Positions 39,597 through 54,820 of a stretch of 64,000 nucleotides of DNA are shown here, piece by piece. The position numbers and the translations under genes are program-made. Positions within the stretch are counted from its first letter, which is position 1. Every line of letters starts with the position of its first letter. The DNA lies in contig CAZVQU010000001.1 in NCBI GenBank assembly GCA_964629655.1, forward strand, positions 20,788 through 84,787. Reading direction: 5' to 3'. This DNA is from an uncultured Planctomycetia bacterium (GTDB lineage Bacteria; Omnitrophota; Gorgyraeia; Duberdicusellales; 4484-171). The notes under the pieces were generated by a model. That model did not search any database and was not told where the DNA came from. It saw nothing but the letters and a program-made list of their open reading frames with translations.

Positions 39597-41629
39597 TTAT
39601 TCACATTCATAGATATGGGTATCCTGATATCATAATACTCCTGCAGGTTAAAACCATCAAATTGGATAACGTCTCCTGTTTGATAATGTTTCTCGCAACC
39701 TTTGGAAGATTCTCCCTCATTAGCTACATTATCGCGCAATATTTCATACACCTTTTCTTTCACGCGTGAAGAAATAAAAACATCCACCGGATTATCAGGA
39801 ATCGAAAAAAATATTTCATCGTCAGCAACTGCTGTAATGTCAAAGATGATTTTTATTGATGATAGACATTTTTTCAAAATATAAGCAATCTTTAAGGAAA
39901 ACATTATGCTTTCGCTACGAATATAAAAATAGAATACGCTGGTTCTTAAAGAAATTATTTCGTTAACTGAATCAAAGGTTTTCTGCGCAAAAATATCCGA
40001 AGCTATCAACGTATCCATATGCGATGACCAAAGATGCCTATTCTCATATGCCCAAAGGTAATGGAATCTCTCTCCCGCAGAATTATATAACTTAATATTA
40101 AAATCATAAATAGTCGGACTAAACCCCTTATCCTTCAAGTAAGAATAGATAGACGCGGTTTCGTATTGAGGTAAATCGATTCTTGCCGGAGGAACGACGA
40201 TCAATGCTACTGCATTAGCATCCTCGCCCTTCCTGAATCCTGCCTGGTTAACAATCACATTCTTAATCGCTAAATTCGACAGGATAAAAATCATTTCACG
40301 CACCCTTTTAATTCTCTCTTCTGGCCCTATGCCATTTTCGTCCACATAAAAACCTAAACCTTCCTTTAACCCCTGCTCGTTAATCCCAAAATCTTTAAGA
40401 TGAGTGCCGACATAAGAATTGTTCATAATCGAGAAAGAAGACACATTAGTAACTGTTGTGATATATTCCTTATTCTCCTTTATCGCCTTGGCTGTCTCAC
40501 TAAAATCATCTCGAGTCTCTGAAGGAAAACCTACAATAACATTAACATCAGTCATAATTCCTGCCTGATGGGTTAGCTTTATTATTCTCTTTGCGTCAGA
40601 TGAATCATAAAATTTGTTCATTTTTTTAAGAATTCTATCAGAAAAACTCTCAACCCCATAGCATAGAGAAAAACATCCTGCCTTTTTCATTTTTTTGAGA
40701 AGTTCAAATGTCATATCTTTTCTTATCATTGCATAGCTACCCCATGCGATATCCAATTTCGATTCAATGATACGGTCGCAGAGTGCTTCTAAATGTTTCA
40801 AATCTCCATTACAAGCCAAGTCGCAAAAAGAAAAAGCATTTCTCTTGTTTTCCTCTATGTGATATTTGAATTCTTCAACTATCCTTTCCGGAGATTTGAC
40901 ACGAAATTGTCCGCACATTAAATGATCTATACAAAAAACACATCTTCCTACGCAGCCACGAGTAATTAATATCGGGATAAAACTATTTTTATACTCTTCT
41001 AATTTAAAATCAGTACATTTTGGAAAGGGCAAACTGTCTATATTATCTATACAATAAGGTGTCGCGGGTTTAAAAAACTTATCTCTATCTGTAATTAACC
41101 CTTTTATTCCTTCAAAACTATCAGATTCTCTACTAAGTATTTTCTCTAAAGCCTCTTCTCCTTCGCCGACAACAATAATATCTATACTAGGGATATCTTC
41201 CTTGAATATAAGTCTCCTATCAATATCCCAAAAACAACCGGTTCCTCCGAAAATAATTTTTTTTCTTTTATCCTTTTTCTTAATCAGTGTTGCTATTCTT
41301 CCAGCAACACCTATGCTTGAAATATTTACAGAAAAACCGATATACTTAGCATCATACGACAATATCTCATCAACCAAGCTATCAATCTCCCGACTAAATG
41401 CCTTACAGACATTCCTGGTTATTTCAGGAATGGGCATAAAGTTAATATTGCAAATTTCCCAGAAAATACGCTTTTTTTTATCAGCTTTATGATAAAGCCT
41501 TAAATTAAAATCAATAATTTTAGGATTGAGACTCCTGCATCTTAAATACTCGGCGATATAAGCCAGCCCTAAAGGGGGCATGCTGGGTTCCCAAGGCGGA
41601 GGCATTACAAGAATAATATCTGCTGACAT
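39593..41629 (-). CDS. B12-binding radical SAM protein with an additional C-terminal B12-binding-like domain
   Basis: 678 aa: B12 domain (KIIFGGTGCFWDID...IVVGEGEE), TRGCVGRCVFC, then a C-terminal region of about 250 aa whose start (LPQYETASIYSYLKDKGFSPTIYDFNIKLY) resembles the B12-rSAM N-terminus. Confidence 0.7.
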   Translation of the reverse strand: MSADIILVMPPPWEPSMPPLGLAYIAEYLRCRSLNPKIIDFNLRLYHKADKKKRIFWEICNINFMPIPEITRNVCKAFSREIDSLVDEILSYDAKYIGFSVNISSIGVAGRIATLIKKKDKRKKIIFGGTGCFWDIDRRLIFKEDIPSIDIIVVGEGEEALEKILSRESDSFEGIKGLITDRDKFFKPATPYCIDNIDSLPFPKCTDFKLEEYKNSFIPILITRGCVGRCVFCIDHLMCGQFRVKSPERIVEEFKYHIEENKRNAFSFCDLACNGDLKHLEALCDRIIESKLDIAWGSYAMIRKDMTFELLKKMKKAGCFSLCYGVESFSDRILKKMNKFYDSSDAKRIIKLTHQAGIMTDVNVIVGFPSETRDDFSETAKAIKENKEYITTVTNVSSFSIMNNSYVGTHLKDFGINEQGLKEGLGFYVDENGIGPEERIKRVREMIFILSNLAIKNVIVNQAGFRKGEDANAVALIVVPPARIDLPQYETASIYSYLKDKGFSPTIYDFNIKLYNSAGERFHYLWAYENRHLWSSHMDTLIASDIFAQKTFDSVNEIISLRTSVFYFYIRSESIMFSLKIAYILKKCLSSIKIIFDITAVADDEIFFSIPDNPVDVFISSRVKEKVYEILRDNVANEGESSKGCEKHYQTGDVIQFDGFNLQEYYDIRIPISMNVNK

Positions 41630-41635
41630 TTTATA

Positions 41636-43033
41636 TTAACTATTAATTTTTATTTCTCCGTCGAAATACAAATATTTACCCGAGAAATATCTTTTATTAT
41701 CCGCTTTGTAGCATTTCAAAACTCTGGCATTAAAAATAGTTGAAGTATTCAATACAGCCATACGGTATCCTTCCTTTTGTGCTTTATCGCACAATGATAC
41801 TCGTGGCAGCTCCTTGATAGCATCAGCTTCAATTTTAACCGTATTTACAACTTTATTATCCTCCTCAAAAAGAGTTGGCCAATCATGGTCAAATAACGAA
41901 GGGGCAATACCCCTGGCCCCGTTGCTGGATGACCACCGATTATACTCCTCCCTTAACATAATATTAACTTGCTGTTCACCTTCAATTAACACTTGTCGCA
42001 AAAATTCAATTTCTATTTTTATTCCTATTATTTCTTTTCCCTTTAATTCTATCTCCCAGGTTTGGATTATAGGCAATGACTGCCACTTTCCCTTGAGCGT
42101 CATCTTCTTATCGTTTATCTTACTGACCTGCCAATCGGCATGTTCTGAATCCTGCCACGAGCTATCAGTAAAAATAGATACGTATAACCCAAAACCACTA
42201 GTTACTCTAAAGCCTTTTGAAAAAATACTCCCTTTGCCTTTATCAAAATAAAAACACAGCTTTTCATTTCTTAAAGTATATCTTTCAAATTCATCAAAAA
42301 TAGTTTTAGAAGGATAAATGTAGGCAATGGGTTTATTTAAATCGTGTATTTTGGATACAAAACTATTGAAATCTCTAGCTAAAACCAGTAATCGACGACT
42401 TCTAACCGAATCAAAACAGTGTTTCCTGTGGCAACAACCACCATAAGAAGGATAGTTGAGGGTAAACGCCTCCGAGCAAGACATCACAGTTGTAATTTCA
42501 TTTACCAAGCCAATGTTTTCACGCAAGAAATTAACTGTTTTATCACGATCAAGTTGCTCCTCTAAAGGATGCCCGAAAACTAAATTTATACCGACATCAA
42601 TCCCTGCGCTCCGGTATGCCTTTAATGCACTTAAAACGTCCCTTGTGGTAAATATCGCTCCTATTTTACTAAGTAAATTATCTGAAGCGCTAAATAACTC
42701 AACGATCACCTTCTTGCATCCTGCTTGTTTCATCCGCACTATAGAATCCGGTTTTATGCCAGGGTTTATTATCGCCGGAGCTGACCATTCTATGCGCATT
42801 TTTTTTTGCACAATAGCACGACAAAACTTGTCTAACTCCTCGATATCCAAATTACAAAAATCCACAAATTCAAACTTATCAATTCTATATTTTGTTAAAT
42901 AATATTTGATTTCGGATAAAAAGTGCTTGCAAGATTTAAGCTCTACTTTTAAATCGTGCCGTAAAGCACAAAGCTTATGCCAACATTCATTCCCTGTAGA
43001 ATGCTTTACATTCTCAGGCCAAACATCTTTCAT
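41636..43033 (-). CDS. Radical SAM-like domain lacking the CxxxCxxC cluster motif, fused to a C-terminal W-rich beta-domain (putative non-catalytic paralog or decaying gene)
   Basis: 465 aa. The N-terminal 200 aa align with the post-motif half of the B12-rSAM paralogs (RIEWSAP...MKQAGCKKVIVELFSASD) but carry no Cys triad and no B12 domain. The C-terminal 200 aa match the repeat on Wzt (GFGLYVSIFTDSSWQDSEHADWQV...WQSLPIIQTWEIE). Confidence 0.5.
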   Translation of the reverse strand: MKDVWPENVKHSTGNECWHKLCALRHDLKVELKSCKHFLSEIKYYLTKYRIDKFEFVDFCNLDIEELDKFCRAIVQKKMRIEWSAPAIINPGIKPDSIVRMKQAGCKKVIVELFSASDNLLSKIGAIFTTRDVLSALKAYRSAGIDVGINLVFGHPLEEQLDRDKTVNFLRENIGLVNEITTVMSCSEAFTLNYPSYGGCCHRKHCFDSVRSRRLLVLARDFNSFVSKIHDLNKPIAYIYPSKTIFDEFERYTLRNEKLCFYFDKGKGSIFSKGFRVTSGFGLYVSIFTDSSWQDSEHADWQVSKINDKKMTLKGKWQSLPIIQTWEIELKGKEIIGIKIEIEFLRQVLIEGEQQVNIMLREEYNRWSSSNGARGIAPSLFDHDWPTLFEEDNKVVNTVKIEADAIKELPRVSLCDKAQKEGYRMAVLNTSTIFNARVLKCYKADNKRYFSGKYLYFDGEIKINS

Positions 43034-43038
43034 ATTTA

Positions 43039-46000
43039 CTATTTAACTCCGGTTTGCAATTGACTATGCATTTTTTTGTTATGTATCAAATTATCACATT
43101 CTTTTATACACCCTATCTCTTTGAAATAAACATCCTCTTTAGATAGATGTTTTGCTTTAGCTCTAAACTTATCGTATGCCGAAGAATACCAAATCTCTTT
43201 AAAAGATTTTTCGTTTATATTACCCATTATTTTCTTAACCCCCCGACAGCAAGGCACAATGCTTCCGTCAGCCAAAATTCTTGTAAAAGTCCAACCAGAA
43301 TAGCAGGGAATTTTATTTATGGCTGACTTATCATATTCTCCTTTTTTAAAGTCCTCTTGAGGTGCAGACAACCTTCTTAAAAATCCTTCAAAAAACTCAA
43401 GGCAAATATTATCTTTTTTGCTTCTTTTTTCGATTTCCAAAGCTTTTCTAAGCAGCTGCTCCTTTTCTGCCAGGTCTAAGGAAAAAACATCTGTTTGATG
43501 CAAAAACACATCAGCAAAGGTAAAATAAAGCGCGTCTGCCCCATACCGGCGCCCGATATCATACATTCCTTCGAAATCCTGAAAATTATTATCCATGATC
43601 ACATTAGCAAAAGTGAGACGAGGCTTATGCTTTCTGATTTCTTTTAAATAAACCAGATTTTCCATTAACTTCTCAAAATATGCAGGTGTAGTCCCGGGGT
43701 GAACTTTGCCATAAACCTGAGGACTAGACGCCCAGATGCTTACACACAATTCTTCCAGATTCAAATCAACAAGTTCTTCTATCTCTTTTTTAGAAACCAA
43801 ACCGAAATTTGTAGTTATAGCTACCTGTAATTGTTTTTCCCGAGCGAATTCCACAGCTTCCATAAGGTTTTTATGCATAAAAGGCTCTCCTCCGCCGGTA
43901 AACCTAATTATTTTTGTGCCTAAAAAAGCTAAGTCTTCTATCAACTTAAAAAGCGCATCTTTTGATAATTCCTTTTCCAGCCAATCACAAGAAGGTTTAT
44001 CTTTGTTTAGTAATGGCGAATAAAGCCAGCACGATACGCATCTTAAGTTACACTTATTAGTAGGGTCGATTACTGCCTGCTGAGGGCCTGTGAAAGCTTT
44101 TCTTCCATGGGCAATTCCTGCAATAACAGGATCCTTGTGGTACTTCAGGTAGATTTTCTTATTTTGTGGTTTTATCCTGCGCGCAATTTTTAGCATATAA
44201 GCTATACCCTTAAGCAAACTCTTCTCCGGGAAGCTCAACATCAACAGCCTATTATGCATCCAGGTATTTCTGCCTATATCATCACAGCTTTTATAACAAC
44301 CGGCTTCTTTTATCTTAGGATCGTTGCCGATAAGTCTGAAAAACGGATCATCTTTCTTGCAAGCCAATGTCTTTTTCCTGAAATATTCCTGCTTTTGTGA
44401 ATTCCATATCTCAAAAAACCTATTTAGGTATAAAGATCCTGTGGGGATCCGATGGGCTTTAAGGCAAGAGTGAACTTCCCCGTTAGGAATTACCCTCGCG
44501 AAAAGCCAACCAATATAACAAGGCATACTGTCAATAATATTGCGGTCATACTTTGCCTGCTTTGCATCATGAGACACTGAGATTCTCCGTAAGAACTGGT
44601 CAAACTGAAAAATTAACACGCCGCTTTTCTTAAATTTATTTTGCCTATCTAATCCGGATTGAATTTCGATACAGGAACTCTGCAGATGCTTAAGCTGTGC
44701 TTCGTTTAAAGAAAGAGTATCCGTAACCCCGGGCATAGTATCAACCACGGTAAACTCCAAAGACTCGGCCTTAATTTCCCCGGCAAATTCAACCATCTCC
44801 CTAACTTCAAAATAATTCATGTTAAAAATAACATTGTAAAGCTTAATATAAGGCTTATCCTTTTTTCGACCATTAAGATAATTTAGATTCTCCTTTATCT
44901 TGTAAAAATCCCGGCTACTGCGGCCGGGGTGAGTTTTTACGTAAGTATCCGCCGTTGCTGCCCAGGTACTTACAGTAAGGAAATCTACCCCTATACTTAT
45001 AAGCTGATCCAGCCTTTCTTGATTAAGCAGAGTAAAATTAGTATTAACGTGGCAGGTTAAATTCTTCTTTTTCGTATATTCCAAAATTTCCATAATCTGA
45101 GGATGCATAAACGGCTCACCGCTTCCTGAATAATAGACTTCTACTGCGCCCATACAAGATATCTCATCAAGGAGCTCTCTAACTAGCGCCAACGGTAAAT
45201 ATTGTTTTTTCTTCTCTTCAGAGAGTCGCGGTGTCTTAAAAAAAGGGGAATTACACCAACATGCAATACAAGTATTATTGCAATTATTGGTTAAGTCTAT
45301 CTGGACATGGAACGGACCTTTGTAGCCATGTTTTCTATCATATATGCCTAAAATCTCTAGATATCTGTCTTTTAAATTCCCAGGGATTATATTGTATATA
45401 ATCCGTTTAATTGTTTCTTTAACCCCGTCTCTTGAAGCGCAATTCTTAAACGTTCTAAAATACGATATCTTTTTTTTCTTCCCCTTCGCCGGCGCCCTCC
45501 CCTTTTTTGTATTCTTAGAAGCATCTTTTCCGGCAAATTCCTTCATTGTTTTTTCAATTCCTAAATTCATACCCCAGTTATCACAACTTTTGATACAATT
45601 CAGCTTAGAAAAGTATTTATCACTTTTCGGCAAATTCTTGGCTTTGAATCTAAATTCTTCATACAAAGAAGAATGCCATATCCTGGAAAAATCCGTTTTA
45701 TAAAGATTACCTAAAGGTAATTCCGCTGCCTTACAGCAGGGGATAACACTTCCGTCAGTCAAAACACGTGCATAATACCATCCCATATAGCATGAAACGG
45801 CGTTAACCTGTTTCTCGTATATGCCCTTTTCTAAGTCAGAACAAAACAACCTCCTTAAAAAAGAGCCTATTCCCAATATATTTAATAACTTTACACTAAT
45901 TGCCGCTTTATTATCTAAGCAATTAACCTTCTCTATACAGCTTCCACAGGCTTGGCTCTTAAGCTTATACCAAAAAACAGCGGGATGAGTATCTTTGGTA

Positions 46001-46938
46001 GAGGTAGATTCAGATACGATAATTCTTTTATCGCTTATCTCGCAGCCTTTTTTACAGGTCAAAGAATTACTGTATTGGGAAGCATGAAAATCTTCTTGAT
46101 AGTCTTTCCAAATTTTACCAAAATCAAGAAATTCTTCTTTTGTAAATTCATCTAACGCAGTCCGGAGTGGTGCATTAAAAGGTACTAAATCGCTCCTTTG
46201 CCTTACCCTCTCCAGCTGCCTTGCTATTTCCTCTCTATCCGTCTCTGTAAGCGACAATATATCGGTTTTACCATAAATAATATCTACAACTTGAAACTCT
46301 ATTGAGTCACCGTCTACCCGCTTAGCGAATTCAACCATCCCCTCAATATCATTAGAATTTTTGCTACAAATTACATTATACAGTTTAAGATGCGGTTTCA
46401 GAAAGCCACGCTTTTTCTTATAGAAAGACAGCCTCGTTAAATTGTCCGCGACTTTCTCAAAATCTGCTTCAACTTTCCCGGGATGAGTCAAAATGTATGT
46501 TGCAGGATTTCCAGCCCATATACTTGCTGTGATCAGATCAACTTTAGATTTAACAAGCAGCTCGGCTATTTCTTCATTAATAGACGCTGCGCTGGTAATT
46601 ATATTTAAATATATGTCTTTCGATTTAATTATGCGTATTACCTCTTTTATCTCCGGGTACAAAAAAGGTTCTCCTGAACCGGATAAAATTATCTCCCGGG
46701 TTCCCATGCTATATAAATCCTTTATCAGCTTTTTAACCATCCGAAACGGGAGCTGTTTCCCGCCTTTTGCAAAAACCTCCTTGCTTCTGACTAAAGGCGA
46801 GTGGATCCAGCACCCAATACAGGTATTATTGCATTTATCGGTTAAGTCTATCTGAACAATATGGGGCCCACGAAATGCTTTCTTCCCATTTCCAATACCA
46901 TCGGATATTCTTTTCCACATATCGAGATTTTTCTTCAT
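43039..46938 (-). CDS. Triple-module radical SAM/SPASM protein (three tandem rSAM-SPASM units in one polypeptide)
   Basis: 1299 aa with three motif sets: IDLTDKCNNTCIGCW / SGSGEPFLYPE / CYMGWYYARVLTDGSVIPCC; IDLTNNCNNTCIACW / SGSGEPFMHPQ / CYIGWLFARVIPNGEVHSC; IDPTNKCNLRCVSCW / TGGGEPFMHKN / CYSGWTFTRILADGSIVPCC. Confidence 0.8.
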   Translation of the reverse strand: MKKNLDMWKRISDGIGNGKKAFRGPHIVQIDLTDKCNNTCIGCWIHSPLVRSKEVFAKGGKQLPFRMVKKLIKDLYSMGTREIILSGSGEPFLYPEIKEVIRIIKSKDIYLNIITSAASINEEIAELLVKSKVDLITASIWAGNPATYILTHPGKVEADFEKVADNLTRLSFYKKKRGFLKPHLKLYNVICSKNSNDIEGMVEFAKRVDGDSIEFQVVDIIYGKTDILSLTETDREEIARQLERVRQRSDLVPFNAPLRTALDEFTKEEFLDFGKIWKDYQEDFHASQYSNSLTCKKGCEISDKRIIVSESTSTKDTHPAVFWYKLKSQACGSCIEKVNCLDNKAAISVKLLNILGIGSFLRRLFCSDLEKGIYEKQVNAVSCYMGWYYARVLTDGSVIPCCKAAELPLGNLYKTDFSRIWHSSLYEEFRFKAKNLPKSDKYFSKLNCIKSCDNWGMNLGIEKTMKEFAGKDASKNTKKGRAPAKGKKKKISYFRTFKNCASRDGVKETIKRIIYNIIPGNLKDRYLEILGIYDRKHGYKGPFHVQIDLTNNCNNTCIACWCNSPFFKTPRLSEEKKKQYLPLALVRELLDEISCMGAVEVYYSGSGEPFMHPQIMEILEYTKKKNLTCHVNTNFTLLNQERLDQLISIGVDFLTVSTWAATADTYVKTHPGRSSRDFYKIKENLNYLNGRKKDKPYIKLYNVIFNMNYFEVREMVEFAGEIKAESLEFTVVDTMPGVTDTLSLNEAQLKHLQSSCIEIQSGLDRQNKFKKSGVLIFQFDQFLRRISVSHDAKQAKYDRNIIDSMPCYIGWLFARVIPNGEVHSCLKAHRIPTGSLYLNRFFEIWNSQKQEYFRKKTLACKKDDPFFRLIGNDPKIKEAGCYKSCDDIGRNTWMHNRLLMLSFPEKSLLKGIAYMLKIARRIKPQNKKIYLKYHKDPVIAGIAHGRKAFTGPQQAVIDPTNKCNLRCVSCWLYSPLLNKDKPSCDWLEKELSKDALFKLIEDLAFLGTKIIRFTGGGEPFMHKNLMEAVEFAREKQLQVAITTNFGLVSKKEIEELVDLNLEELCVSIWASSPQVYGKVHPGTTPAYFEKLMENLVYLKEIRKHKPRLTFANVIMDNNFQDFEGMYDIGRRYGADALYFTFADVFLHQTDVFSLDLAEKEQLLRKALEIEKRSKKDNICLEFFEGFLRRLSAPQEDFKKGEYDKSAINKIPCYSGWTFTRILADGSIVPCCRGVKKIMGNINEKSFKEIWYSSAYDKFRAKAKHLSKEDVYFKEIGCIKECDNLIHNKKMHSQLQTGVK

Positions 46939-49325
46939 AATTTTCCTATAAACTTCTGCCGATCAAAACGAAGATAGTTCAAATAGCTCCTTGTCTTCCT
47001 AAAGGCTGTACCTAAGCCATGATTCTGCCAATATTTGAGGAATTTTTTTATATTGCCCAAGGCTCCTCTCTTCTGCCTCTGATGGTCAGCCCACAACCTA
47101 TAGGCATGCTGCTTTGCTTCTTCCAGCTCAGCCGAAGAAAGATTATCTGGTTGAAAAACGCAGCTGTTGTGGCCATCATACATAGAAAAATCTTTGGTTA
47201 AGATTTTGCCTCTTTTATCTAATTCTTCAAAAAGCGCTGTTCCCGGAAAAGGGGTAATTATAGAAAATTGCACAGAATGAGGGTCTAATTCTAAAGCGTA
47301 ATCGATAGTGCCTTTGATTGTCTCTCTGGTCTCTCCGGGAAGGCCGAAAGAAAACGTTAAATGGACATTTATTCCTAACGATTTAGTATATTTAATCACT
47401 CTTTCTGCTTTCCTTAAATCCAAGCTCTTTCCGCATCTATCCACTAATTCTTGTGAAGCACTCTCTACTCCATACTTTACCGCATGCAGACCGGCCTCTT
47501 TCATCTTATCCAGAATTTCCTCATCCATTAAATCCGCTTTCGCCATAATAGCCCAGGGAACCTTGCCCAAGCCTCTTCCTATAATTTCATCACATAGCTT
47601 TATCATCCTGTCTTTGCCTATATTGAAAGTATCATCATCAAAATATATAGATTTAAACCCCCGCTTGAGGATTAAATGTTCCATCTCACCCACCACATCA
47701 TCTACATCCCTCACCCTATAGGCCTTGCTGCCAAAAAAGGCCTGTGGCCATAAACAAAAGTTACAGCGAAAAGGACACCCTCGAGAAGCAACCATTTGAG
47801 CTGAAGGATGAGGTATATTTCCCGGCAAATCCCAATATTTCTCCATCGGGAGGCTATCTCCTCGATAAGGCCAGGGTAAAAAATCTAACTCAAAAGGTTC
47901 CCGAAAACGATTTTTAACCACATTGTTATCCTGATCTTTCCAAATAAGACCTTTTATATGGGAAAGGTCCTTTTCTCCTTGAGAAATAGCCTTAACTAAT
48001 TCAAGAAGGGTAAACTCATACTCTCCAAACAAAATAAAATCGATAAAGTCACTCTTTGCTAAAAATTCCGGTTTGCAGATTTCCGGATGCGGGCCGCATA
48101 AAATTACAGGAATATTCATCAACGATATTTTCCTTAACACTCCCATATCGTGATAAAAAGAAGGGACAGAGGTTTCAGTAACTAAAACATCAAAATCCAT
48201 CACAGATAGCTTCTCCAAGAATTTACCTTCAGGAGTTATCTCAGCAATAGCATCTATTAAACTAGCTTCAACATTATTTTTTATCAAAAGGGAAGTAGCA
48301 TAGGCGAGAAAAAATGGGAAAGGTAAGTAGTTGTTCTCGCTCCTATCTTTGATATGCGGCCAGCGGGAACCGGCCCTTACGCCCCAACTCCCTTCTTTTT
48401 GCCAAGGAAAATTGGTTAACAGCACTTTTAATTTCTTTTTTAGCTTTCTACTTTTTGTCTTTTCCTTTATTGTTGCCCTGAAACAATTTTGGCGTAAATT
48501 TTCTATTTTTTTATCTAACAAATTATCTTTTTCAAATAAGTTCATCCTTCCGGAAAAAAGGTGGTGATGTCCCGGATAATAAACGCCTTCATCCATAGGG
48601 CTTACGCACCTAAAACCGATAACATGAACATTAATATTTGAAGGTGGCTTCTGAATGAGTGCAAATACTTGCTCTTCGCTATTTTGGCACTCCAGCAACA
48701 GAGAAGGTAAAAATTCATCACCGACAGAAAACCTTGCTCCTACTAAAGAAGTAGGAATATTATCCGAGCAAAGGCCTTGCCAATGGTTACTTGGACGAGG
48801 AAAGTCTCCCTGTTGAAAATTATAAATCCAGGTTTTATACTCGGGGTTGACCTGACATATTACGCAGAAATCATCAATATCCATCCATTCTTCTATTTCA
48901 ATAGATATATCCAGATATATTTGACACCCCTCTGTTATTCTCAATACCCAAATCTGGCTTAAGGGCAATTCTTTAAAGGTCACTTTAACCTTGAAATTGT
49001 CTTTACCCATATCTAAAATTTGCCAATCTGCCTTTGTAGAATCTGTCGACAATCCCAAAGTATTAATGCCTACGTTTAAACCCGCCCCTCCAGTAACTTC
49101 AATATCATTGAAATAAATATTTATTCCGAATCCGGAATGAATTATTCTAATATTTCCTTTTGCAATAACATGCACTTTCGGTTGCTTAAGCTTAGCCTCT
49201 TTCCCCTCGGCTAAAAATTTTCTGACTAAAAAAATAAAATATTTAACTCCTCTCAAAAGAGCATAAAATAAACCACCGATTTTCAGATGCTGCCAGAATT
49301 TTCGACAGCTATTTCTAAAATTCAA
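46935..49325 (-). CDS. N-terminal W-rich beta-domain fused to a B12-binding radical SAM protein
   Basis: 796 aa. The N-terminal 290 aa (GFGINIYFND...ADWQILDMG...LSQIWVLRI...NFQQGDFPRPSNHWQGL) match the Wzt repeats; then a B12 domain (VILCGPHPEICKPEFL...ILFGEYE) and SRGCPFRCNFC. Confidence 0.75.
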   Translation of the reverse strand: MNFRNSCRKFWQHLKIGGLFYALLRGVKYFIFLVRKFLAEGKEAKLKQPKVHVIAKGNIRIIHSGFGINIYFNDIEVTGGAGLNVGINTLGLSTDSTKADWQILDMGKDNFKVKVTFKELPLSQIWVLRITEGCQIYLDISIEIEEWMDIDDFCVICQVNPEYKTWIYNFQQGDFPRPSNHWQGLCSDNIPTSLVGARFSVGDEFLPSLLLECQNSEEQVFALIQKPPSNINVHVIGFRCVSPMDEGVYYPGHHHLFSGRMNLFEKDNLLDKKIENLRQNCFRATIKEKTKSRKLKKKLKVLLTNFPWQKEGSWGVRAGSRWPHIKDRSENNYLPFPFFLAYATSLLIKNNVEASLIDAIAEITPEGKFLEKLSVMDFDVLVTETSVPSFYHDMGVLRKISLMNIPVILCGPHPEICKPEFLAKSDFIDFILFGEYEFTLLELVKAISQGEKDLSHIKGLIWKDQDNNVVKNRFREPFELDFLPWPYRGDSLPMEKYWDLPGNIPHPSAQMVASRGCPFRCNFCLWPQAFFGSKAYRVRDVDDVVGEMEHLILKRGFKSIYFDDDTFNIGKDRMIKLCDEIIGRGLGKVPWAIMAKADLMDEEILDKMKEAGLHAVKYGVESASQELVDRCGKSLDLRKAERVIKYTKSLGINVHLTFSFGLPGETRETIKGTIDYALELDPHSVQFSIITPFPGTALFEELDKRGKILTKDFSMYDGHNSCVFQPDNLSSAELEEAKQHAYRLWADHQRQKRGALGNIKKFLKYWQNHGLGTAFRKTRSYLNYLRFDRQKFIGKL

Positions 49326-52300
49326 CTTTTATTGCTCCTTTAAAGTAAGGATATTTTCCCGGTAACATCTTGTAAGTATTGGCTTTTTGATATTGAAGCA
49401 GCCTTGCATGATATAAATCGTCGGTATTTTCTATAATCGCCCGCAGATTCTCGTCCTCCGTATCATTCTGGAAACAAACTCCAGGCAAGATCTCTGCCTT
49501 AGCTACAATTTCTTTTGCCTTACCGTACCAGAATCTAAACGGCAAAATATCATATTCTTGAGTATACTCATTCAAAAAATTCCCGCAGCTGTCCTTAGAT
49601 ACTGTCCAATTTTCATATTGCGAACAAAGCATAATATTCGCTTGGCATATTTCTAAATCAAGCCGTTCATGAATTTCCATACCTACCTGCCAAGAAATTA
49701 AATTTTTACCAACCATTTCGATATGCCAAATCTGAGAAAGAACGATGTGCGGCCAAAAACCCCTTACCGTCAGTTTATTATTTTCTTTCCGTTTTACTTC
49801 CCAAACAGCTTGATAAGAATCATACCAAATTCCTAAAGAGCGTACCGAAGTATATACCCCTAATCCGGAAGTTAGCTCTTCGGCTCCCTTCTTTAAAAAT
49901 ATACCTCCTTTGCCTTGGTTAAAAGCAAATTTCAAACAATTACTGTTTATCTCAACAGCACTACGCTTCCTTGTAAGCTTTCCTATTTTTGCTGTCTTAC
50001 CAACGATTATTTCACCTTCAAAGCAAGTATGTCTACCTAAAGAAATTATTTTCTTTTTTCTAGAAGCAATCGCTCCGGAATAAATACCAATACACTTAGA
50101 ACCTTTCTCTCTTCGTTTATAGATATTAAAAAATCTATTTTCGGAAGGCAATGTGCATCGCAACAATACACGGGGATTACGCTTAGTATCCTTAGATATA
50201 AGGATAATTCCCGGAATTCGATTGTCTTTCAGGCGTATCGGAGCAACATTATTTATATACCTGCTAGTTAAAAGATTTCCCTCCTCTTCCGAAGCCATCC
50301 ATCTTTGGTAACAATCCTTTAGCTCCAGCCTCACCCCTTCGTCAATAAACGATATCGGCCCATCAGATTTAATCTCCACTTTAACCCTTAAGGTATTTTC
50401 ATCGATATACTGGATGTCCCATATTTGGATAACGGAAACCTGAGGATAGGAGAGAGTTAAAATGAGCCGTTTCCCAGATACATTTTCTATTTTCCACTGG
50501 GCGTTAGACAGACCAAATCTCTCCTTGGAATTGTTAAACGAGTAATGCAAACCACAGGCATGAGTTAATTCCTTATTTTTAAAAAAAATCCGTAACGCCA
50601 TTGATTCCTCGTCGGCAAACAGCCGCAGATTCCCGCAAGCGATAGTCCTACTTAAAACGAACAACTCTTGTTCTTCCTGCTGTTTTCGACGGTATTGTTC
50701 CTTTTGTTCGATAAGGTAAGCGGCAATCGGATTTTCTTCTTTCCAGATGCTGATCGGGATTAAAAAAGAACTTTTTCTCTTCATAATATCTTCTTTAGAA
50801 ATACTTAGCTGCAAAGCACGGCACTGCCTCTGTCTATCGCTGTTTTGGATAATGCACTCGTGGCTCTCTCTGTTCTCCAAAATAATTGCCGGAAATTCAG
50901 ATTGCTCTCTTAAACCGCAAAGCTTTGCCTGCGGCTCGATTAACGACATATCCTGCCAACTATTAGAATATTGAGGAAAATTTCCTTGTTGGCAGCCGCA
51001 GAAAAAACTTTTATACGCAGGATTAAAAAGTAAACCGAATTTAAATAGCCTGACCTCAAACGGTTGAGGAAATTGAGAGTCAACCTGCCATAAAAGCTTA
51101 TTGTCACTAAAAGAGATTTCCCATAGTTGTTTGAATTTTAAACAATCCCAAAAGAAAGATAAAATAAGAGTCTCCCCCTTCCTCTTCACCTGCCATTCAC
51201 AGGAAGATAAATCATACCAAACGTTATTAACAAAAAATGAACTATGCAGCCCTGCTTCCTGAGTAATCTCTTTGCCTTTGTAGTAAAGTCTTAAGGCCTT
51301 TTCGTTGATATCAGCAAAAAATTTAACATCTCCCGAATTAATAGTATGTTCAGCGCATAGACGATCCTGTTCTTTTTGCTGCCTTAGAAGAAATTTTTGT
51401 TTAGTCTCCCTGATGCACCCTAAAAACTCACACTCTTTAGGAAATATCTTAATAAAAACAGAGTTTTTAGCCTTTAAAGCTAAATCCCACTGGACAACAC
51501 GAGCTTCTTGTTCATACCCTGCGTTAAATAGTTTAAACAAACCATCCTTAGCTTTTTGTTCCAGAATAAGGCCAGGGTTAGGACGATCTTGATGATGCCA
51601 ATCTCCGGATAGGCCCACCATAGCATCAAAATAGCTGCTTAAACCTAAATCCTGCCAGTTAGACTTAGAAACAAAGGACGGAAAATCACTGCCTTTATCT
51701 AAAGTCTGCCACCTCGCATATTGAGGCATAAAAAACAAATCTACATGTGGCTGCTTTATGCCCTCTCCTCTTACTTCTGTTTGCCATTGTAAACAATTAT
51801 TTTCTAGCTGAAACATCCAGATTTGTGAAAAACTCCCATCATATGATTTTCCTTCAGCAACAATCCTGTCGGCTCCGAAACTCTCTACCTGCCAGAATAG
51901 ATTAAGAGAAGACGACCAACTATTAAGAGAAGGAATAAGAAAAGATACATAACCACCCATTGCCTTAGTGATAGGAAAACCTTTATAGCTAAGAACAACT
52001 TTGCCATTGTTAAATATTACCCTTAATCCTTCTTTCTCTAAAACCGCAATGCCCTTTTTGTCTCCAACGGTTTCTAGATAATACGGGACAACCTTTGTTG
52101 CTAAATCTTCCTGGACAATCCTGCCTTTCTCCAGGAGGATTAACTTATCACATAGCTTGCTTACGATATCCATATCATGGCTGACTAAAATAATGGTTTT
52201 CCCCATTTGCTTCAACTCAAATATCTTCTTAATACACTTCTCCTGCGCTTCCACATCACCTACAGCCAAAATATCGTCAATCAAAAGTATGTCCGGCTCA

Positions 52301-52755
52301 ACGAATATTGCTAAAGCAAAAGCAAGCCGCATGTACATACCCTGAGAATAGTATTTAATAGGTGCATCAATAAACTCACCCAAATCGGCGAACTTTATAA
52401 TATCGCCCATCCTTTGCTTTAGGTCAGTCTCGCTTAAGCCATAGATAGCAGCATTAAGGTTTATATTTTCTATTCCGGTAAACTCAAGGTTAAACCCCGC
52501 TCCCAGTTCCATTAAGGCCGATACTTTGCCTTTAATATGGACTTCCCCTTTATCGGGAATCAGCATTCCGGCTATCAGCTTTAACAAAGTTGTCTTACCG
52601 GCTCCATTTTTGCCAATAATGCCTATAATGTCGCCTTTCTCTACCTTGAAATTGATATTCTCCAGCGCCCAGACCTCTTCCCAGCAAACATTCTTCTGTT
52701 TGATAAACTTTATCCTGTATTTTTCCCAAACACCGTTAAAATTTATTACTTTCAT
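49315..52755 (-). CDS. Wzt/TagH/KpsT-type polysaccharide ABC-transporter ATP-binding protein with a C-terminal extension of about 900 aa carrying four repeats of a W-rich beta-domain
   Basis: 1146 aa: Walker A GKNGAGKTTLLKLIAG, signature YSQGMYMRLAFALA, Walker B LLIDDILAVGD, H-loop SHD. Four repeats follow, each with GLxxS..W.D..WQV/WEV...W...IWxxE and a QQGNFP-like motif. Confidence 0.8.
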   Translation of the reverse strand: MKVINFNGVWEKYRIKFIKQKNVCWEEVWALENINFKVEKGDIIGIIGKNGAGKTTLLKLIAGMLIPDKGEVHIKGKVSALMELGAGFNLEFTGIENINLNAAIYGLSETDLKQRMGDIIKFADLGEFIDAPIKYYSQGMYMRLAFALAIFVEPDILLIDDILAVGDVEAQEKCIKKIFELKQMGKTIILVSHDMDIVSKLCDKLILLEKGRIVQEDLATKVVPYYLETVGDKKGIAVLEKEGLRVIFNNGKVVLSYKGFPITKAMGGYVSFLIPSLNSWSSSLNLFWQVESFGADRIVAEGKSYDGSFSQIWMFQLENNCLQWQTEVRGEGIKQPHVDLFFMPQYARWQTLDKGSDFPSFVSKSNWQDLGLSSYFDAMVGLSGDWHHQDRPNPGLILEQKAKDGLFKLFNAGYEQEARVVQWDLALKAKNSVFIKIFPKECEFLGCIRETKQKFLLRQQKEQDRLCAEHTINSGDVKFFADINEKALRLYYKGKEITQEAGLHSSFFVNNVWYDLSSCEWQVKRKGETLILSFFWDCLKFKQLWEISFSDNKLLWQVDSQFPQPFEVRLFKFGLLFNPAYKSFFCGCQQGNFPQYSNSWQDMSLIEPQAKLCGLREQSEFPAIILENRESHECIIQNSDRQRQCRALQLSISKEDIMKRKSSFLIPISIWKEENPIAAYLIEQKEQYRRKQQEEQELFVLSRTIACGNLRLFADEESMALRIFFKNKELTHACGLHYSFNNSKERFGLSNAQWKIENVSGKRLILTLSYPQVSVIQIWDIQYIDENTLRVKVEIKSDGPISFIDEGVRLELKDCYQRWMASEEEGNLLTSRYINNVAPIRLKDNRIPGIILISKDTKRNPRVLLRCTLPSENRFFNIYKRREKGSKCIGIYSGAIASRKKKIISLGRHTCFEGEIIVGKTAKIGKLTRKRSAVEINSNCLKFAFNQGKGGIFLKKGAEELTSGLGVYTSVRSLGIWYDSYQAVWEVKRKENNKLTVRGFWPHIVLSQIWHIEMVGKNLISWQVGMEIHERLDLEICQANIMLCSQYENWTVSKDSCGNFLNEYTQEYDILPFRFWYGKAKEIVAKAEILPGVCFQNDTEDENLRAIIENTDDLYHARLLQYQKANTYKMLPGKYPYFKGAIKVEF

Positions 52756-53534
52756 AGCTTCTTAAATAATTCCGGTTCCCTCTTTATAAAAAACCAATAT
52801 CCTCCGACAAAAAAAACTACCGAGATTAAGGAGGCTAGGAGCATAAGCTGTAAAGTTGGAACAGATCCTTCATAGAGAATCTGTCGATATAACATGATAT
52901 AGTAAGTTAAGGGATTGAATAGACAGATCCAGCGATAGGGAAATTCTAACATCTGAAGAGAGTAAAATACCGGGGTAACCCAAAACCATAGCATTAAGCC
53001 AACGGATAAAAAATGCATCAAATCGTCAGAAAAGGCATTGAGGGCGGAGAAAATCATCCCTAAGCCCAGAAGAAAAACTAAATGTAAGATAAAAACTAAC
53101 ACAAGAATTGGTAAAACTTTAATCATCTGGGGATTGGCGATGAAGAAAAAAGGTAAAAGAAAAATGATTCCGATTATAAAACTCAAAGAATTCGCAAAAA
53201 CGCAAGACGCCGGAATAAATTCACGCGGGAATATACCTTGTTTTAATATTGCTGAATCGGCAGCAAAAGAGTTAGTTACTTCCATTACAGTATTGGAAAA
53301 AAATAACCAGGGAATAATTCCTGAAAGAACGAATAAAGTGAAATCAGGAATCTCAACCTTAAAAACATGGGTAAAAATAATATCAATGCTAAAAGCCAAA
53401 ATTAAAGGTGTGGCAACCGCCCACCAGAGGCCGAGCATCGCCCCGGAATACTTAGCCTTGAACTTCTTAGCCATCATCCCTTTAAGAATAGCTCTGGCCT
53501 GAAACGCTTTTATTATTCGTCCTTTAACAATCAT
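52752..53534 (-). CDS. ABC-2 type (Wzm/TagG-like) polysaccharide exporter permease
   Basis: 260 aa with 6 predicted TM helices and ABC-2 topology, immediately upstream of the Wzt-like ATPase with a 4-nt overlap. Confidence 0.7.
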   Translation of the reverse strand: MIVKGRIIKAFQARAILKGMMAKKFKAKYSGAMLGLWWAVATPLILAFSIDIIFTHVFKVEIPDFTLFVLSGIIPWLFFSNTVMEVTNSFAADSAILKQGIFPREFIPASCVFANSLSFIIGIIFLLPFFFIANPQMIKVLPILVLVFILHLVFLLGLGMIFSALNAFSDDLMHFLSVGLMLWFWVTPVFYSLQMLEFPYRWICLFNPLTYYIMLYRQILYEGSVPTLQLMLLASLISVVFFVGGYWFFIKREPELFKKL

Positions 53535-54820
53535 AATTTATTCTTAACAATCTTCTCTGCTTCAAGGATAACATCTTCCATTGACAGATAACGCCAGCTA
53601 CCGTACCGGCCGCACGAAATAATACTGTTTCTTGACAAAAAATTTAGTATCTTCCTGCGTACTGAAGTATAATTTTTGTTATAAACAGGATAGCCGTACT
53701 TTATATCGTTTACATTTTCACAACAAATCTCATTTCCATCTTTAATAACTCCGGTAGCAGTTAAGTATTCCCTGATTTGAGCACCAATTTCTCTCCTACG
53801 AAGGGGCCGATCTTTTGAATAGGAAATATCTACATACAACGACCCTCTCTTCCGAGGCACAAGGTGAGAAGAAAAATTATGAAAGAAACCTATTCTAAAA
53901 AAAGGAATATTCTTCTGCGAAAAATAAACCCAATGCCGGCCGGGCTGAATTCTTTTCTTCACTCCCAAATTAACATTGCAAATAGATATCCACCTCAATT
54001 CCTTAAAGTTACTCTTCATGCCTTTAGGTAGCGCTGTGATTATCTTGCCAAGTTCGGGTAAAGGAATAGTAGACACTAACTTGTCAAACTTCTCCTTTCT
54101 CCCGTCTTTAAAAGTCACCGCCTTTTTCTTCAAGTCAATCGCCACTGCCTGAGAGCATAAATGAATGTTGTCCAAGCCTGAGTAGAATCCTTTGATTAAC
54201 CCCTCGATTCCTCCTTTTCTTGGATACCAAAAAGAATTGTTATAGCCTAACGGCTCGCTCTTCTCTCTGTTTAACCTCTCTTTAATTTGCTTGAGAGTAG
54301 GAACAATTATAAACCTTTCTGCCCATTTATGGTTCAACTGGTCTAAAGGAATTTTCCATAATTTGGCATTGTAAGGAATCATAAAATTGCTGGCTATGCC
54401 TTTACCAAACTCATTATGAGTCCATTGCAGAAAATTACTGCTTCTTGAAGCTCGTTTCTTCGCCTCAATAAGCCCCTGCAAACATTGCTTAGCAACTCTT
54501 TTAGGCAGATAGTTAAAATTAACTTGAAATGGGTATGGTATAAATTTTTTAGAAGCATAAACGTAAGCCTTTCTTTTGTGTTTTGTCAAACCGCCGTTTA
54601 AAACTTCCTTTACTAAAGATAATGTATTTCTGTTTCTAAAATGCAAGAGGTGCCCGCTGGAATCAAATGTAAACCCTTGTCTTTCTGTCGAGCGGCACAA
54701 ACCGCCTGGTTTAATTTCTTTCTCGAAAATTTCAGCTTTTACTTTCCTTTCTCTTAAAAAGTATGCTAATGACAGACCTGACAAGCCTGCTCCGATAATT
54801 AAAACTGCTCTTTTTTTCAT
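53531..54820 (-). CDS. FAD-dependent oxidoreductase, UDP-galactopyranose mutase (Glf)-like
   Basis: 429 aa: LIIGAGLSGLSLAY (GxGxxG), EKEIKPGGLCRST, GFTFDSSGHLLHF (compare Glf GG..YT...G...YGAHIFHT). Position next to wzm/wzt mirrors galactofuranose O-antigen loci. Confidence 0.5.
   Translation of the reverse strand: MKKRAVLIIGAGLSGLSLAYFLRERKVKAEIFEKEIKPGGLCRSTERQGFTFDSSGHLLHFRNRNTLSLVKEVLNGGLTKHKRKAYVYASKKFIPYPFQVNFNYLPKRVAKQCLQGLIEAKKRASRSSNFLQWTHNEFGKGIASNFMIPYNAKLWKIPLDQLNHKWAERFIIVPTLKQIKERLNREKSEPLGYNNSFWYPRKGGIEGLIKGFYSGLDNIHLCSQAVAIDLKKKAVTFKDGRKEKFDKLVSTIPLPELGKIITALPKGMKSNFKELRWISICNVNLGVKKRIQPGRHWVYFSQKNIPFFRIGFFHNFSSHLVPRKRGSLYVDISYSKDRPLRRREIGAQIREYLTATGVIKDGNEICCENVNDIKYGYPVYNKNYTSVRRKILNFLSRNSIISCGRYGSWRYLSMEDVILEAEKIVKNKL

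What the first reader, a model, noticed from the sequence alone, without database searches (positions are those of the whole stretch)
41636..52755. Previously undescribed W-rich beta-domain of about 200 aa, repeated 4x on the Wzt ATPase and fused to rSAM enzymes (a shared substrate-recognition module)
The C-terminal 900 aa of the Wzt-like ATPase (49315..52755) consist of four repeats with a conserved pattern: GLxxS/V ... W.D ... WQV/WEV ... W ... LSQIW/LKQLW, plus a QQGNFPxxSNxWQ motif. The same domain forms the N-terminus of the B12-rSAM at 46935..49325 and the C-terminus of the degenerate rSAM at 41636..43033. In characterised Wzt proteins a C-terminal carbohydrate-binding module reads the chain-terminating modification of the polymer to license export. 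Here the same module sits on the exporter and on the modifying enzymes. That suggests it binds the rSAM-modified glycan, tethering the tailoring enzymes and gating export on completed modification.
Basis: partly seen in the sequence, partly recalled or inferred. Interest (0 to 1): 0.85.

Follow-up and report, generated by a model that had tools for sequence, protein, structure and literature searches.

The report
Sugar-domain repeats linking exporter and radical enzymes
A roughly 215-residue all-beta domain with no entry in protein family databases is repeated four times on the tail of a polysaccharide-export ATPase and occurs once on each of two neighbouring radical-SAM proteins; its predicted fold is a known sugar-associated one, and the arrangement is conserved in Omnitrophota bacteria, which points to a surface-glycan pathway that couples radical chemistry to export.

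Summary
The window holds exactly six copies of a ~215-aa domain: four on the Wzt-like ATPase, one at the N-terminus of the B12 radical-SAM (rSAM) enzyme, and one at the C-terminus of a truncated rSAM protein that lacks the CxxxCxxC motif. Leave-one-out profiles score 61-110 bits against at most 8 bits for shuffles.

An exhaustive search finds 627 cluster representatives. Every named one examined is Candidatus Omnitrophota. Most have an ABC ATPase followed by 2-5 copies. Others fuse the domain to rSAM enzymes, GT-C glycosyltransferases or a sulfatase. Two are ATPase-domain-rSAM fusions.

In 46 of 47 related metagenomic loci, the gene directly after Wzt also encodes the domain. The copies form conserved positional subtypes, so they are not interchangeable.

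A shared glycan-recognition or scaffold role that couples rSAM tailoring to export is well supported as an inference. Ligand identity and gating of export on completed modification are untested. I class it as a new variant of a known kind.

The parts
52752..53534 (-). Wzm-like ABC-2 permease (260 aa), immediately upstream of and overlapping the Wzt gene
   Evidence: Pfam ABC2_membrane E 2.4e-14. Weak NCBIfam hits to galactan Wzm and KpsM. Conserved directly upstream of Wzt in the related loci whose sequence reaches that far.
52060..52755 (-). Wzt nucleotide-binding domain (aa 1-232)
   Evidence: Pfam ABC_tran E 1.4e-21. Best NCBIfam hits are TagH (198 bits) and galactan Wzt (156 bits), all below equivalog cut-offs and covering only aa 6-250.
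51403..52050 (-). Domain copy 1 on Wzt (aa 236-451), subtype A ('first')
   Evidence: HMM domain hit. Leave-one-out 60.8 bits, E 3e-18. Clusters with the first copy of the 3-, 4- and 5-copy Wzt proteins in the related loci.
50704..51348 (-). Domain copy 2 on Wzt (aa 470-684), subtype B ('middle'; absent from 2- and 3-copy Wzt, doubled in 5-copy Wzt)
   Evidence: (92.8 bits).
49978..50649 (-). Domain copy 3 on Wzt (aa 703-926), subtype C ('penultimate')
   Evidence: (97.7 bits).
49321..49959 (-). Domain copy 4 on Wzt (aa 933-1145), subtype D ('last'), the best-conserved subtype (motifs DYDILPFRFWYG and ARLLQYQK)
49176..49325 (-). Conserved basic/aromatic amphipathic N-terminal segment (aa 1-50) of the B12-rSAM protein; possible membrane-surface anchor
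   Evidence: The motif NYxKFKxHLKxGGLxYAxWRGIKYFIFLxKK recurs in most orthologues. The membrane role is inference only.
48498..49175 (-). Domain copy on the B12-rSAM protein (aa 51-276), subtype E ('rSAM N-terminal')
46968..48377 (-). B12-type radical SAM catalytic region (aa 317-786), HpnJ-like, with CPFRCNFC at aa 517
   Evidence: Pfam Radical_SAM E 2.7e-22; B12-binding only E 0.004. NCBIfam HpnJ 244 bits over the full profile, but the cut-off is 577.6. CxxxCxxC motif found.
43039..46938 (-). Triple rSAM/SPASM fusion protein (1299 aa, three CxxxCxxC motifs). It carries no copy of the domain but is part of the conserved cassette.
   Evidence: Present as one fused gene or three separate genes downstream of the domain-rSAM gene in most related loci.
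42284..43033 (-). Truncated rSAM remnant (aa 1-250): second half of the rSAM barrel only, no CxxxCxxC, no B12 domain
   Evidence: Pfam Radical_SAM E 9.7e-6, below cut-off, profile positions 57-165 of 166. No motif. Orthologues at 62% and 51% identity over the C-terminal 254 aa used as the query (mainly the domain) in L003 and L004; the same gene is also present in L010, L051 and L056.
41639..42283 (-). Domain copy at the C-terminus of the truncated rSAM (aa 251-465), closest to subtype D
   Evidence: BLASTP against Wzt copy 4: 31% identity over 212 aa, E 1e-22 to 4e-27. Leave-one-out 109.9 bits. Five of six such copies cluster with subtype D.
53531..54820 (-). FAD/NAD-binding amine-oxidase-like protein (429 aa), conserved directly upstream of Wzm in the cassette; function unknown
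   Evidence: Pfam Amino_oxidase and NAD_binding_8. NCBIfam PRK07208-like 'hypothetical protein'; only a weak N-terminal match to UDP-galactopyranose mutase. Synteny.

Best explanation
The repeat is a sequence family absent from Pfam, NCBIfam and the PDB, within the known galactose-mutarotase-like (glycoside-hydrolase-type carbohydrate-binding) beta-supersandwich fold. So far it is found in Candidatus Omnitrophota.

The most likely function is a non-catalytic, cytoplasmic glycan-recognition module of a conserved ABC-transporter-dependent glycan pathway. The cassette is: GT1, a FAD protein, Wzm, Wzt carrying 2-5 copies, domain-B12-rSAM, three rSAM/SPASM enzymes, then GT1 and GT2.

Proposed mechanism:
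1. A lipid-linked glycan is built at the inner face of the membrane.
2. The copy on the HpnJ-like B12-rSAM brings the enzyme to that glycan. The copy on the catalytically dead rSAM remnant does the same for its protein. A conserved amphipathic N-terminus may help on the B12-rSAM.
3. The array on Wzt takes the place of the classical jelly-roll CBD. It captures the polymer and hands it to the Wzm channel.

Shown here: homology of the six copies, the predicted fold, the fusion partners, the conserved synteny and the positional subtypes.

Inferred: sugar binding, the identity of the ligand, and any coupling of export to completed modification.
For: - Fusion partners are all glycan enzymes or transporters. 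Among the best 150 of 627 representatives there are 84 ABC+domain, 11 domain+rSAM, 2 ABC+domain+rSAM/SPASM, 6 GT-C/PMT_2+domain and 1 sulfatase+domain.
- Synteny: in 46 of 47 related loci with downstream sequence, the gene after Wzt encodes the domain. It is fused to an rSAM in 43 and stands alone before a B12 rSAM in 3.
- Glycosyltransferases GT1 and GT2 flank the cassette.
- No predicted transmembrane segment lies in the Wzt tail, so it is cytoplasmic like the rSAM enzymes.
- Precedent: characterised Wzt proteins use a C-terminal CBD that reads the polymer cap, is essential for export and can act in trans (PMC9445017).
- Cobalamin rSAM enzymes related to the one here act on sugars. HpnJ is proposed to contract a glucosamine ring. 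MoeK5 and GenK are associated with sugar-containing products (moenomycin, gentamicin) (PMC9204698).
- The conserved columns are mostly Trp, Tyr, Phe, Gly, Pro, Thr, Gln and Asn, with no conserved His/Asp/Glu catalytic set.
Against: - No ligand or binding data exist.
- The superfamily assignment rests on predicted structures built from a six-sequence alignment and on structural similarity at 4-13% identity. No sequence profile links the family to any known one.
- The same fold also serves as a protein-interaction module (YidC P1 domain, PnsB2, a PBCV-1 minor capsid protein) and as a catalytic domain (aldose epimerases, OpgG/OpgD).
- The copies are divergent positional subtypes, so a single common ligand is not implied.
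- The synteny statistic comes from loci retrieved with a subtype-D pattern. It describes one orthologous cassette and includes a few near-duplicate contigs.
Confidence: 0.55

Rival explanations
1. The domains are protein-protein docking modules. Contacts between unlike copies (for example Wzt subtype D with the D-like copy on the truncated rSAM, or Wzt copies with the rSAM subtype E) assemble the rSAM enzymes onto the transporter as a membrane-associated metabolon. The domains themselves do not bind sugar.
For: - The positional subtypes are strictly conserved, as expected for specific partner interfaces.
- A catalytically dead rSAM remnant is kept only as a carrier of a D-type copy.
- Stand-alone copies are encoded between Wzt and the rSAM gene in three loci.
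- ABC-domain-rSAM fusion proteins show that the partners work in physical proximity.
- The same fold is a protein-interaction module in YidC P1, PnsB2 and PBCV-1 P19.
- The classical Wzt CBD also dimerises.
Against: - The domain is also fused to GT-C glycosyltransferases and to a sulfatase. There the common denominator is a glycan, not an rSAM or Wzt partner. In GT-C enzymes the C-terminal domain is normally on the other side of the membrane; that topology is my inference from 9-10 hydrophobic segments.
- Most structural neighbours are sugar-handling proteins.
- The two roles are not mutually exclusive.
Confidence: 0.25
2. The domains are enzymes in their own right, acting on the glycan or its sugar precursors. 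Candidate activities are mutarotase/epimerase-like or OpgG/GH186-like glycan-processing.
Against: - No conserved His, Asp or Glu set exists. The only acidic column at 60% or more is E960, at 68%.
- Across the six window copies only seven positions are invariant, in the order T, G, W, Q, W, Y, P.
- Up to 5-8 copies occur per protein and the subtypes diverge. This fits binding or scaffold modules better than active sites.
Confidence: 0.07
3. The cassette does not act on a polysaccharide. It acts on a peptide (RiPP) or on a lipid or glycolipid, which the ABC-2 transporter exports. The domain then recognises that non-glycan substrate.
For: - Several rSAM genes in the window have their best, sub-threshold NCBIfam hits to RiPP maturases: PapB-like at 228 bits against a cut-off of 340, and rSAM_ocin_1 at 129-138 bits against 281.85.
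- The B12-rSAM is HpnJ-like, and HpnJ's substrate is a glycolipid.
- ABC-2 transporters also export lipids and peptides (general knowledge).
Against: - The RiPP-like genes lie outside the conserved core cassette.
- The core always includes Wzm/Wzt with TagH/Wzt-like ATPases and GT1/GT2 genes.
- The domain is fused to GT39-type glycosyltransferases and a sulfatase.
- The fold is typical of carbohydrate-active proteins.
- I did not search for a precursor-peptide gene. A glycolipid substrate would still be compatible with the best explanation.
Confidence: 0.08

Closest known systems
Wzt C-terminal carbohydrate-binding domain (Pfam Wzt_C; E. coli O9a, Raoultella terrigena, Aquifex aeolicus)
   Same: It is fused directly after the nucleotide-binding domain of a Wzm/Wzt-type exporter ATPase and is cytoplasmic. 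It probably recognises the substrate. The characterised CBD reads the polymer cap, is essential for export and can work in trans (PMC9445017). Stand-alone copies of the new domain also exist.
   Different: - The fold and family differ. The known CBD is a single ~150-aa jelly-roll that dimerises by strand exchange. Here there are 2-8 tandem ~215-aa supersandwich domains.
- There is no Pfam Wzt_C match even at E up to 10.
- The new domain is shared with the tailoring enzymes. I am not aware that this has been reported for the classical CBD.
Galactose mutarotase-like / glycoside-hydrolase-type carbohydrate-binding supersandwich superfamily (aldose 1-epimerase; N- or C-terminal accessory domains of GH2, GH15, GH36, GH38, GH94, GH97 and PL8-type lyases; OpgG/D; YidC P1)
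   Different: - Identity is only 4-13% and no sequence-profile link exists.
- The aldose-epimerase catalytic residues are not conserved.
- It is attached to an ABC ATPase, rSAM enzymes and GT-C transferases rather than to glycoside hydrolases or lyases.
- It occurs in long tandem arrays.
HpnJ and related cobalamin-dependent radical SAM enzymes acting on sugars (MoeK5, GenK, Fom3 cluster)
   Same: The catalytic part of the 796-aa protein aligns over the whole HpnJ profile at E 3e-72 and has the CxxxCxxC motif. HpnJ is proposed to contract the glucosamine ring of a hopanoid glycolipid (PMC9204698).
   Different: The score is far below the HpnJ equivalog cut-off (244 against 577.6 bits), so it is not an HpnJ orthologue. 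The HpnJ profile match covers only aa 317-786, so the N-terminal supersandwich domain and the amphipathic leader lie outside it. The context is a Wzm/Wzt glycan cassette, not a hopanoid cluster.
Substrate-recognition domains fused to rSAM enzymes (the RiPP recognition element, a PqqD-like domain on RiPP maturases)
   Same: The logic is the same: a non-catalytic recognition domain fused to an rSAM enzyme and shared among several proteins of one pathway (general knowledge).
   Different: The fold is unrelated (a winged helix-turn-helix in the RRE), and the presumed ligand is a glycan rather than a leader peptide.

Membership tests
Wzm/Wzt (ABC-transporter-dependent glycan export) system | ABC nucleotide-binding domain of the Wzt/TagH/KpsT type | tested here: met
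   Pfam ABC_tran E 1.4e-21. The top NCBIfam hits are TagH (E 3e-58) and galactan Wzt (E 9e-46), though all fall below equivalog cut-offs.
Wzm/Wzt (ABC-transporter-dependent glycan export) system | Adjacent ABC-2 type permease (Wzm) | tested here: met
   The gene at 52752-53534 matches ABC2_membrane at E 2.4e-14 and overlaps the Wzt start. This arrangement is conserved in related loci.
Wzm/Wzt (ABC-transporter-dependent glycan export) system | Glycosyltransferases for cytoplasmic polymer assembly in the same cluster | tested here: met
   GT1/GT4 and GT2 genes lie at 33366-36440, and a PMT_2 gene at 1935-3629. GT1 and GT2 genes flank the cassette in related loci.
Wzm/Wzt (ABC-transporter-dependent glycan export) system | Export of an undecaprenyl-diphosphate-linked glycan | not testable with these tools
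   This needs biochemistry or genetics. No cultured host was identified.
Classical Wzt carbohydrate-binding domain (Pfam Wzt_C, jelly-roll) | Sequence match to the Wzt_C family | tested here: not met
   No Wzt_C hit for the full protein, for the six copies at E up to 10, or for 56 diverse copies at E up to 1.
Classical Wzt carbohydrate-binding domain (Pfam Wzt_C, jelly-roll) | Jelly-roll fold resembling solved Wzt CBD structures | tested here: not met
Galactose mutarotase-like supersandwich superfamily | The fold itself | tested here: met
Galactose mutarotase-like supersandwich superfamily | Detectable sequence-profile relationship to a member family | tested here: not met
   HMM profiles of 6 and 56 copies searched against all PDB sequences gave only chance hits at E 0.03 or worse. 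Pfam scans gave nothing consistent. HHsearch against Pfam, ECOD or CATH profiles could not be run.
Aldose 1-epimerase (catalytic mutarotase) | Conserved catalytic His/His/Asp/Glu set | tested here: not met
   No His or Asp column reaches 60% conservation across 153 copies. The only acidic column is E960 at 68%. This was tested by column conservation only, not by structural superposition.
Cobalamin-dependent radical SAM enzymes (796-aa protein) | Radical SAM core with CxxxCxxC | tested here: met
   Pfam Radical_SAM E 2.7e-22. CPFRCNFC at aa 517.
Cobalamin-dependent radical SAM enzymes (796-aa protein) | B12-binding domain | tested here: inconclusive
   Pfam B12-binding gives only E 0.004, at 17.4 bits against a cut-off of 32.1. 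However, the full-length alignments to HpnJ and BchE profiles include that region.
HpnJ (equivalog) | Score above the NCBIfam equivalog cut-off | tested here: not met
   244 bits against a cut-off of 577.6.
Radical SAM enzymes (465-aa protein) | CxxxCxxC cluster motif and a complete barrel | tested here: not met
   No motif is present. Only profile positions 57-165 of 166 match, at a score below the cut-off. It is a conserved remnant, not an active rSAM enzyme.

The most novel reading that the evidence does not exclude
The tandem array is more than a simple lectin. It would be an ordered assembly line or ruler on the exporter. Each positional subtype (A to D) would read a different state or segment of a lipid-linked glycan. 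The E- and D-type copies on the rSAM proteins would dock the radical enzymes at defined stations. The number of copies (2 to 8) would set chain length or the number of modifications before release into the Wzm channel. The product would be a radical-SAM-tailored surface glycan (for example ring-contracted, C-methylated or cross-linked) specific to Omnitrophota.
Probability: 0.15. Interest if true: 0.85.

Novelty: new variant of a known kind. Interest (0 to 1): 0.66.

Why it matters
Characterised Wzt exporters check their cargo with one small jelly-roll domain. Here a different, much larger array does that job, and the same domain family also sits on the tailoring enzymes.

This gives a testable handle on how modification and export are coupled. 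It also defines a conserved Omnitrophota cassette in which a Wzm/Wzt exporter is wired to four or more radical SAM enzymes, in two cases by gene fusion. To my knowledge, radical-SAM tailoring of ABC-transporter-exported glycans has not been described, and targeted literature searches found nothing.

Omnitrophota are ultra-small, largely uncultured bacteria, so their cell surface is likely to matter biologically.

The family deserves a Pfam entry. It also offers a sequence marker for finding the pathway in metagenomes.

Tried and rejected
- The word-index homologue search with the six copies found only two truncated Wzt orthologues. With 56 copies it found 11 short proteins. The exhaustive HMMER search was needed to find the family.
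- The search for related loci with the six-copy alignment failed because no stretch was conserved enough. A single-protein query against genomes gave two loci. An alignment of subtype-D copies against metagenomes gave 54 loci.
- The AlphaFold database fold library (afdb50) was not available.
- Pfam, NCBIfam and PDB sequence searches gave no real match for the domain.
- Literature searches found no description of this domain or cassette. The terms were Wzt + radical SAM, Wzt + carbohydrate-binding + mutarotase, and Omnitrophota + radical SAM.
- I rejected a recent tandem duplication or low-complexity artefact. The copies are 17-31% identical and fall into subtypes conserved across loci.
- I rejected the idea that the 465-aa gene is a pseudogene or frameshift fragment. 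The same gene is present in five other loci, and two orthologues have intact ORFs of 467 and 476 aa.
- I considered UDP-galactopyranose mutase for the upstream FAD protein. Only a weak N-terminal match exists, so I left it unassigned.
Full report
**What is at the locus.**
All genes between 37 kb and 57 kb of the window are on the minus strand. Reading in the direction of transcription, the genes are:
- 53531-54820: a FAD/NAD-binding amine-oxidase-like protein.
- 52752-53534: an ABC-2 permease (Wzm-like).
- 49315-52755: a 1146-aa ABC ATPase.
- 46935-49325: a 796-aa B12-type radical SAM (rSAM) protein.
- 43039-46938: a 1299-aa triple rSAM/SPASM fusion.
- 41636-43033: a 465-aa protein that matches only the second half of the rSAM barrel.
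- 37065-41629: two more B12-rSAM proteins.

In the ATPase, only aa 31-161 match Pfam (ABC_tran). The best NCBIfam hits are TagH and galactan Wzt, and they cover only aa 6-250. The remaining ~900 residues have no annotation.

- BLASTP among the cluster proteins shows four segments of the ATPase tail matching the C-terminus of the 465-aa protein (E down to 1e-22 to 4e-27). The same segments match the N-terminus of the 796-aa protein (E down to 6e-10).
- An alignment of the six segments has seven invariant positions, in the order T, G, W, Q, W, Y, P.
- Each copy is found by a profile built from the other five at 61-110 bits. The best of 500 shuffles reaches at most 8 bits.
- A six-frame scan of the whole 64-kb window finds exactly these six copies.
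- With orthologues added, profile-profile comparison between every pair of subtypes gives 98.8-100% probability. This includes exporter copies against rSAM copies.
- The domain has about twice the tryptophan content of the other proteins in the window.
- The 465-aa protein has no CxxxCxxC motif and no B12 domain. The 796-aa protein has CPFRCNFC. 'Degenerate rSAM' is therefore right.

**Is the domain known?**
By sequence, no.
- Pfam, NCBIfam and all PDB sequences give nothing beyond chance. This holds for the six copies and for 56 diverse copies.
- Homologues in public records are annotated only as 'ABC transporter ATP-binding protein', 'radical SAM protein', 'glycosyltransferase family 39 protein' or 'hypothetical'.

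By fold, yes.
- AlphaFold models of Wzt copy 4 and of the rSAM-borne copy are confident for such shallow alignments (pLDDT 84.4 and 84.9, pTM 0.84) and are all-beta.
- Foldseek agrees, with TM 0.72-0.74.

This is the galactose-mutarotase-like supersandwich. It is not the jelly-roll of the characterised Wzt carbohydrate-binding domain. That domain does not appear among the hits, and its Pfam family is not matched.

**How widespread is it?**
- An exhaustive HMMER search of 1.84 billion cluster representatives finds 627 proteins at E <= 1e-3, of which 525 are at E <= 1e-10.
- Among the best 150, the architectures are:
  - 84 ABC ATPase plus domain copies. By my local domain count these carry 2 (18 proteins), 3 (41), 4 (14), 5 (10) or 7 copies (1). 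The search itself reports up to 8 stretches for that last protein.
  - 11 domain-rSAM fusions.
  - 2 ABC-domain-rSAM/SPASM fusions.
  - 6 GT-C (PMT_2/GT39)-domain fusions.
  - 1 sulfatase-domain fusion.
  - 43 domain-only proteins, many of them fragments.
- Every member with an organism name is Candidatus Omnitrophota.
- The two genome loci found are one Omnitrophota MAG and one MAG labelled Planctomycetia.

**Conserved cassette.**
- A metagenome scan with an alignment of the last-copy subtype returned 54 loci at 42-77% identity, apart from one 1.1-kb fragment at 27%.
- I annotated them locally with profiles built from the window's own proteins. This shows one recurring gene order: GT1, FAD protein, Wzm, Wzt with 2-5 copies, domain-B12-rSAM, often a second B12-rSAM, three rSAM/SPASM enzymes (fused or separate), GT1, GT2.
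- Of 47 loci with at least 1.5 kb downstream of Wzt, the next gene encodes the domain in 46. It is fused to an rSAM in 43 and stands alone before a B12-rSAM in 3.
- The truncated-rSAM-plus-domain gene recurs in five other loci.
- Caveat: these loci were fetched with a subtype-specific pattern and include a few near-duplicates. The statistic describes one orthologous cassette, not independent associations.

**The copies are not equivalent.**
Clustering 153 copies from these loci separates five groups:
- Subtype A is always the first copy after the ATPase domain.
- Subtype B is a middle copy. It is absent from 2- and 3-copy proteins and doubled in 5-copy proteins.
- Subtype C is the penultimate copy.
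- Subtype D is the last copy. Five of the six copies on truncated rSAM proteins also belong here.
- Subtype E is the N-terminal copy of the rSAM enzymes.

The duplications are therefore old and each position is conserved. This argues for specialised roles rather than four identical binding sites.

**Mechanism.**
The most economical reading has five parts:
- The domain is a non-catalytic, glycan-associated module.
- Its fusion partners share only one thing, action on glycans. They are an exporter ATPase, rSAM enzymes whose closest relatives act on sugars, GT-C glycosyltransferases and a sulfatase.
- The fold is typical of accessory domains in carbohydrate-active enzymes.
- No catalytic acid/base set is conserved.
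- The Wzt tail has no transmembrane segment, so it shares the cytoplasm with the oxygen-sensitive rSAM enzymes.

In characterised systems the Wzt CBD binds the polymer's terminal cap, is essential for export and can act in trans (PMC9445017). Here an array of supersandwich domains probably plays that role, and related copies bring the tailoring enzymes to the same substrate or to the transporter.

A conserved basic and aromatic amphipathic segment precedes the domain on the B12-rSAM in most orthologues. This fits action at the membrane surface on a lipid-linked substrate.

The B12-rSAM aligns over the full HpnJ profile but scores far below its cut-off. HpnJ is proposed to contract a glucosamine ring (PMC9204698), so unusual sugar chemistry is plausible but unproven.

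The main rival is that the copies dock proteins to each other rather than binding sugar. The two roles could coexist. A catalytic role and a non-glycan substrate are less likely.

A shared module that couples exporter and rSAM enzymes is strongly backed by fold, fusions and synteny. However:
- The fold is known.
- The domain is analogous, not homologous, to the classical Wzt CBD.
- 'The same module' hides conserved subtypes.
- Binding of the modified glycan and gating of export remain untested.

**Novelty.**
This is a new sequence family within a known fold, used in a new way on a known kind of transporter. It defines a previously undescribed rSAM-coupled Wzm/Wzt cassette in Omnitrophota. Literature searches found no prior description. 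I rate it a new variant of a known kind, with interest about 0.66.

Noticed in passing
window 49176-49325 (aa 1-50 of the B12-rSAM protein); orthologues in L005, L009, L012, L016, L035, L047 and others: A conserved basic/aromatic amphipathic motif (NYxKFKxHLKxGGLxYAxWRGIKYFIFLxKK) precedes the domain on most domain-B12-rSAM proteins. It may be an in-plane membrane anchor. The gene start overlaps the Wzt stop.
   Followed up: partly
window 43039-46938; compare L009, L013, L016, L018 and L022: The 1299-aa protein is a fusion of three complete rSAM/SPASM enzymes, each with its own CxxxCxxC. In many related loci the same three are separate genes of about 400 aa. Their best NCBIfam hit is the tungsten-cofactor maturase family, below cut-off.
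   Followed up: partly
P0032 (1856 aa) and P0131 (1217 aa), from the representative search: These are single polypeptides made of ABC ATPase, 2-5 domain copies and an rSAM/SPASM enzyme. They are gene-fusion evidence that the exporter and a radical enzyme work together.
   Followed up: partly
window 39593-41629 (678 aa): This B12-rSAM protein carries a second B12-binding-like region at aa 476-631. That region matches the B12 region of the neighbouring 843-aa protein (E 7e-12) and has no second rSAM core.
   Followed up: no
window 20333-49325: There is an unusually dense run of about a dozen radical SAM genes (B12-type, SPASM-type, one PapB-like). It is interleaved with GT1/GT2 genes, two DUF2079 membrane proteins, a polysaccharide deacetylase and two U32-peptidase-like genes.
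   Followed up: partly
window 11677-13709: A 2-hydroxyacyl-CoA dehydratase D-component gene (HGD-D) lies next to a BcrAD/BadFG-type activator ATPase gene, downstream of the glycan cluster on the same strand. Whether they are connected to the cluster is unknown.
   Followed up: no
window 53531-54820: A FAD/NAD-binding amine-oxidase-like protein is conserved immediately upstream of Wzm in most related loci whose sequence extends that far. It matches only 'hypothetical protein' NCBIfam models (PRK07208) and, weakly, the N-terminus of UDP-galactopyranose mutase.
   Followed up: partly
L004 2574-3071: In the MAG labelled Planctomycetia, an extra 165-aa ORF with a hydrophobic N-terminus sits between the SPASM gene and the truncated-rSAM gene. 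It is absent from the window and from L003.
   Followed up: no
L059 7070-13555 (JGI Ga0434947_000126): In one related contig the Wzt tail is called as separate ORFs (508 aa with the ATPase domain, then 226 and 404 aa). A 295-aa ORF (not checked for the domain) is separate from the following rSAM gene. This is either real splitting into proteins that act in trans or the result of assembly frameshifts.
   Followed up: no
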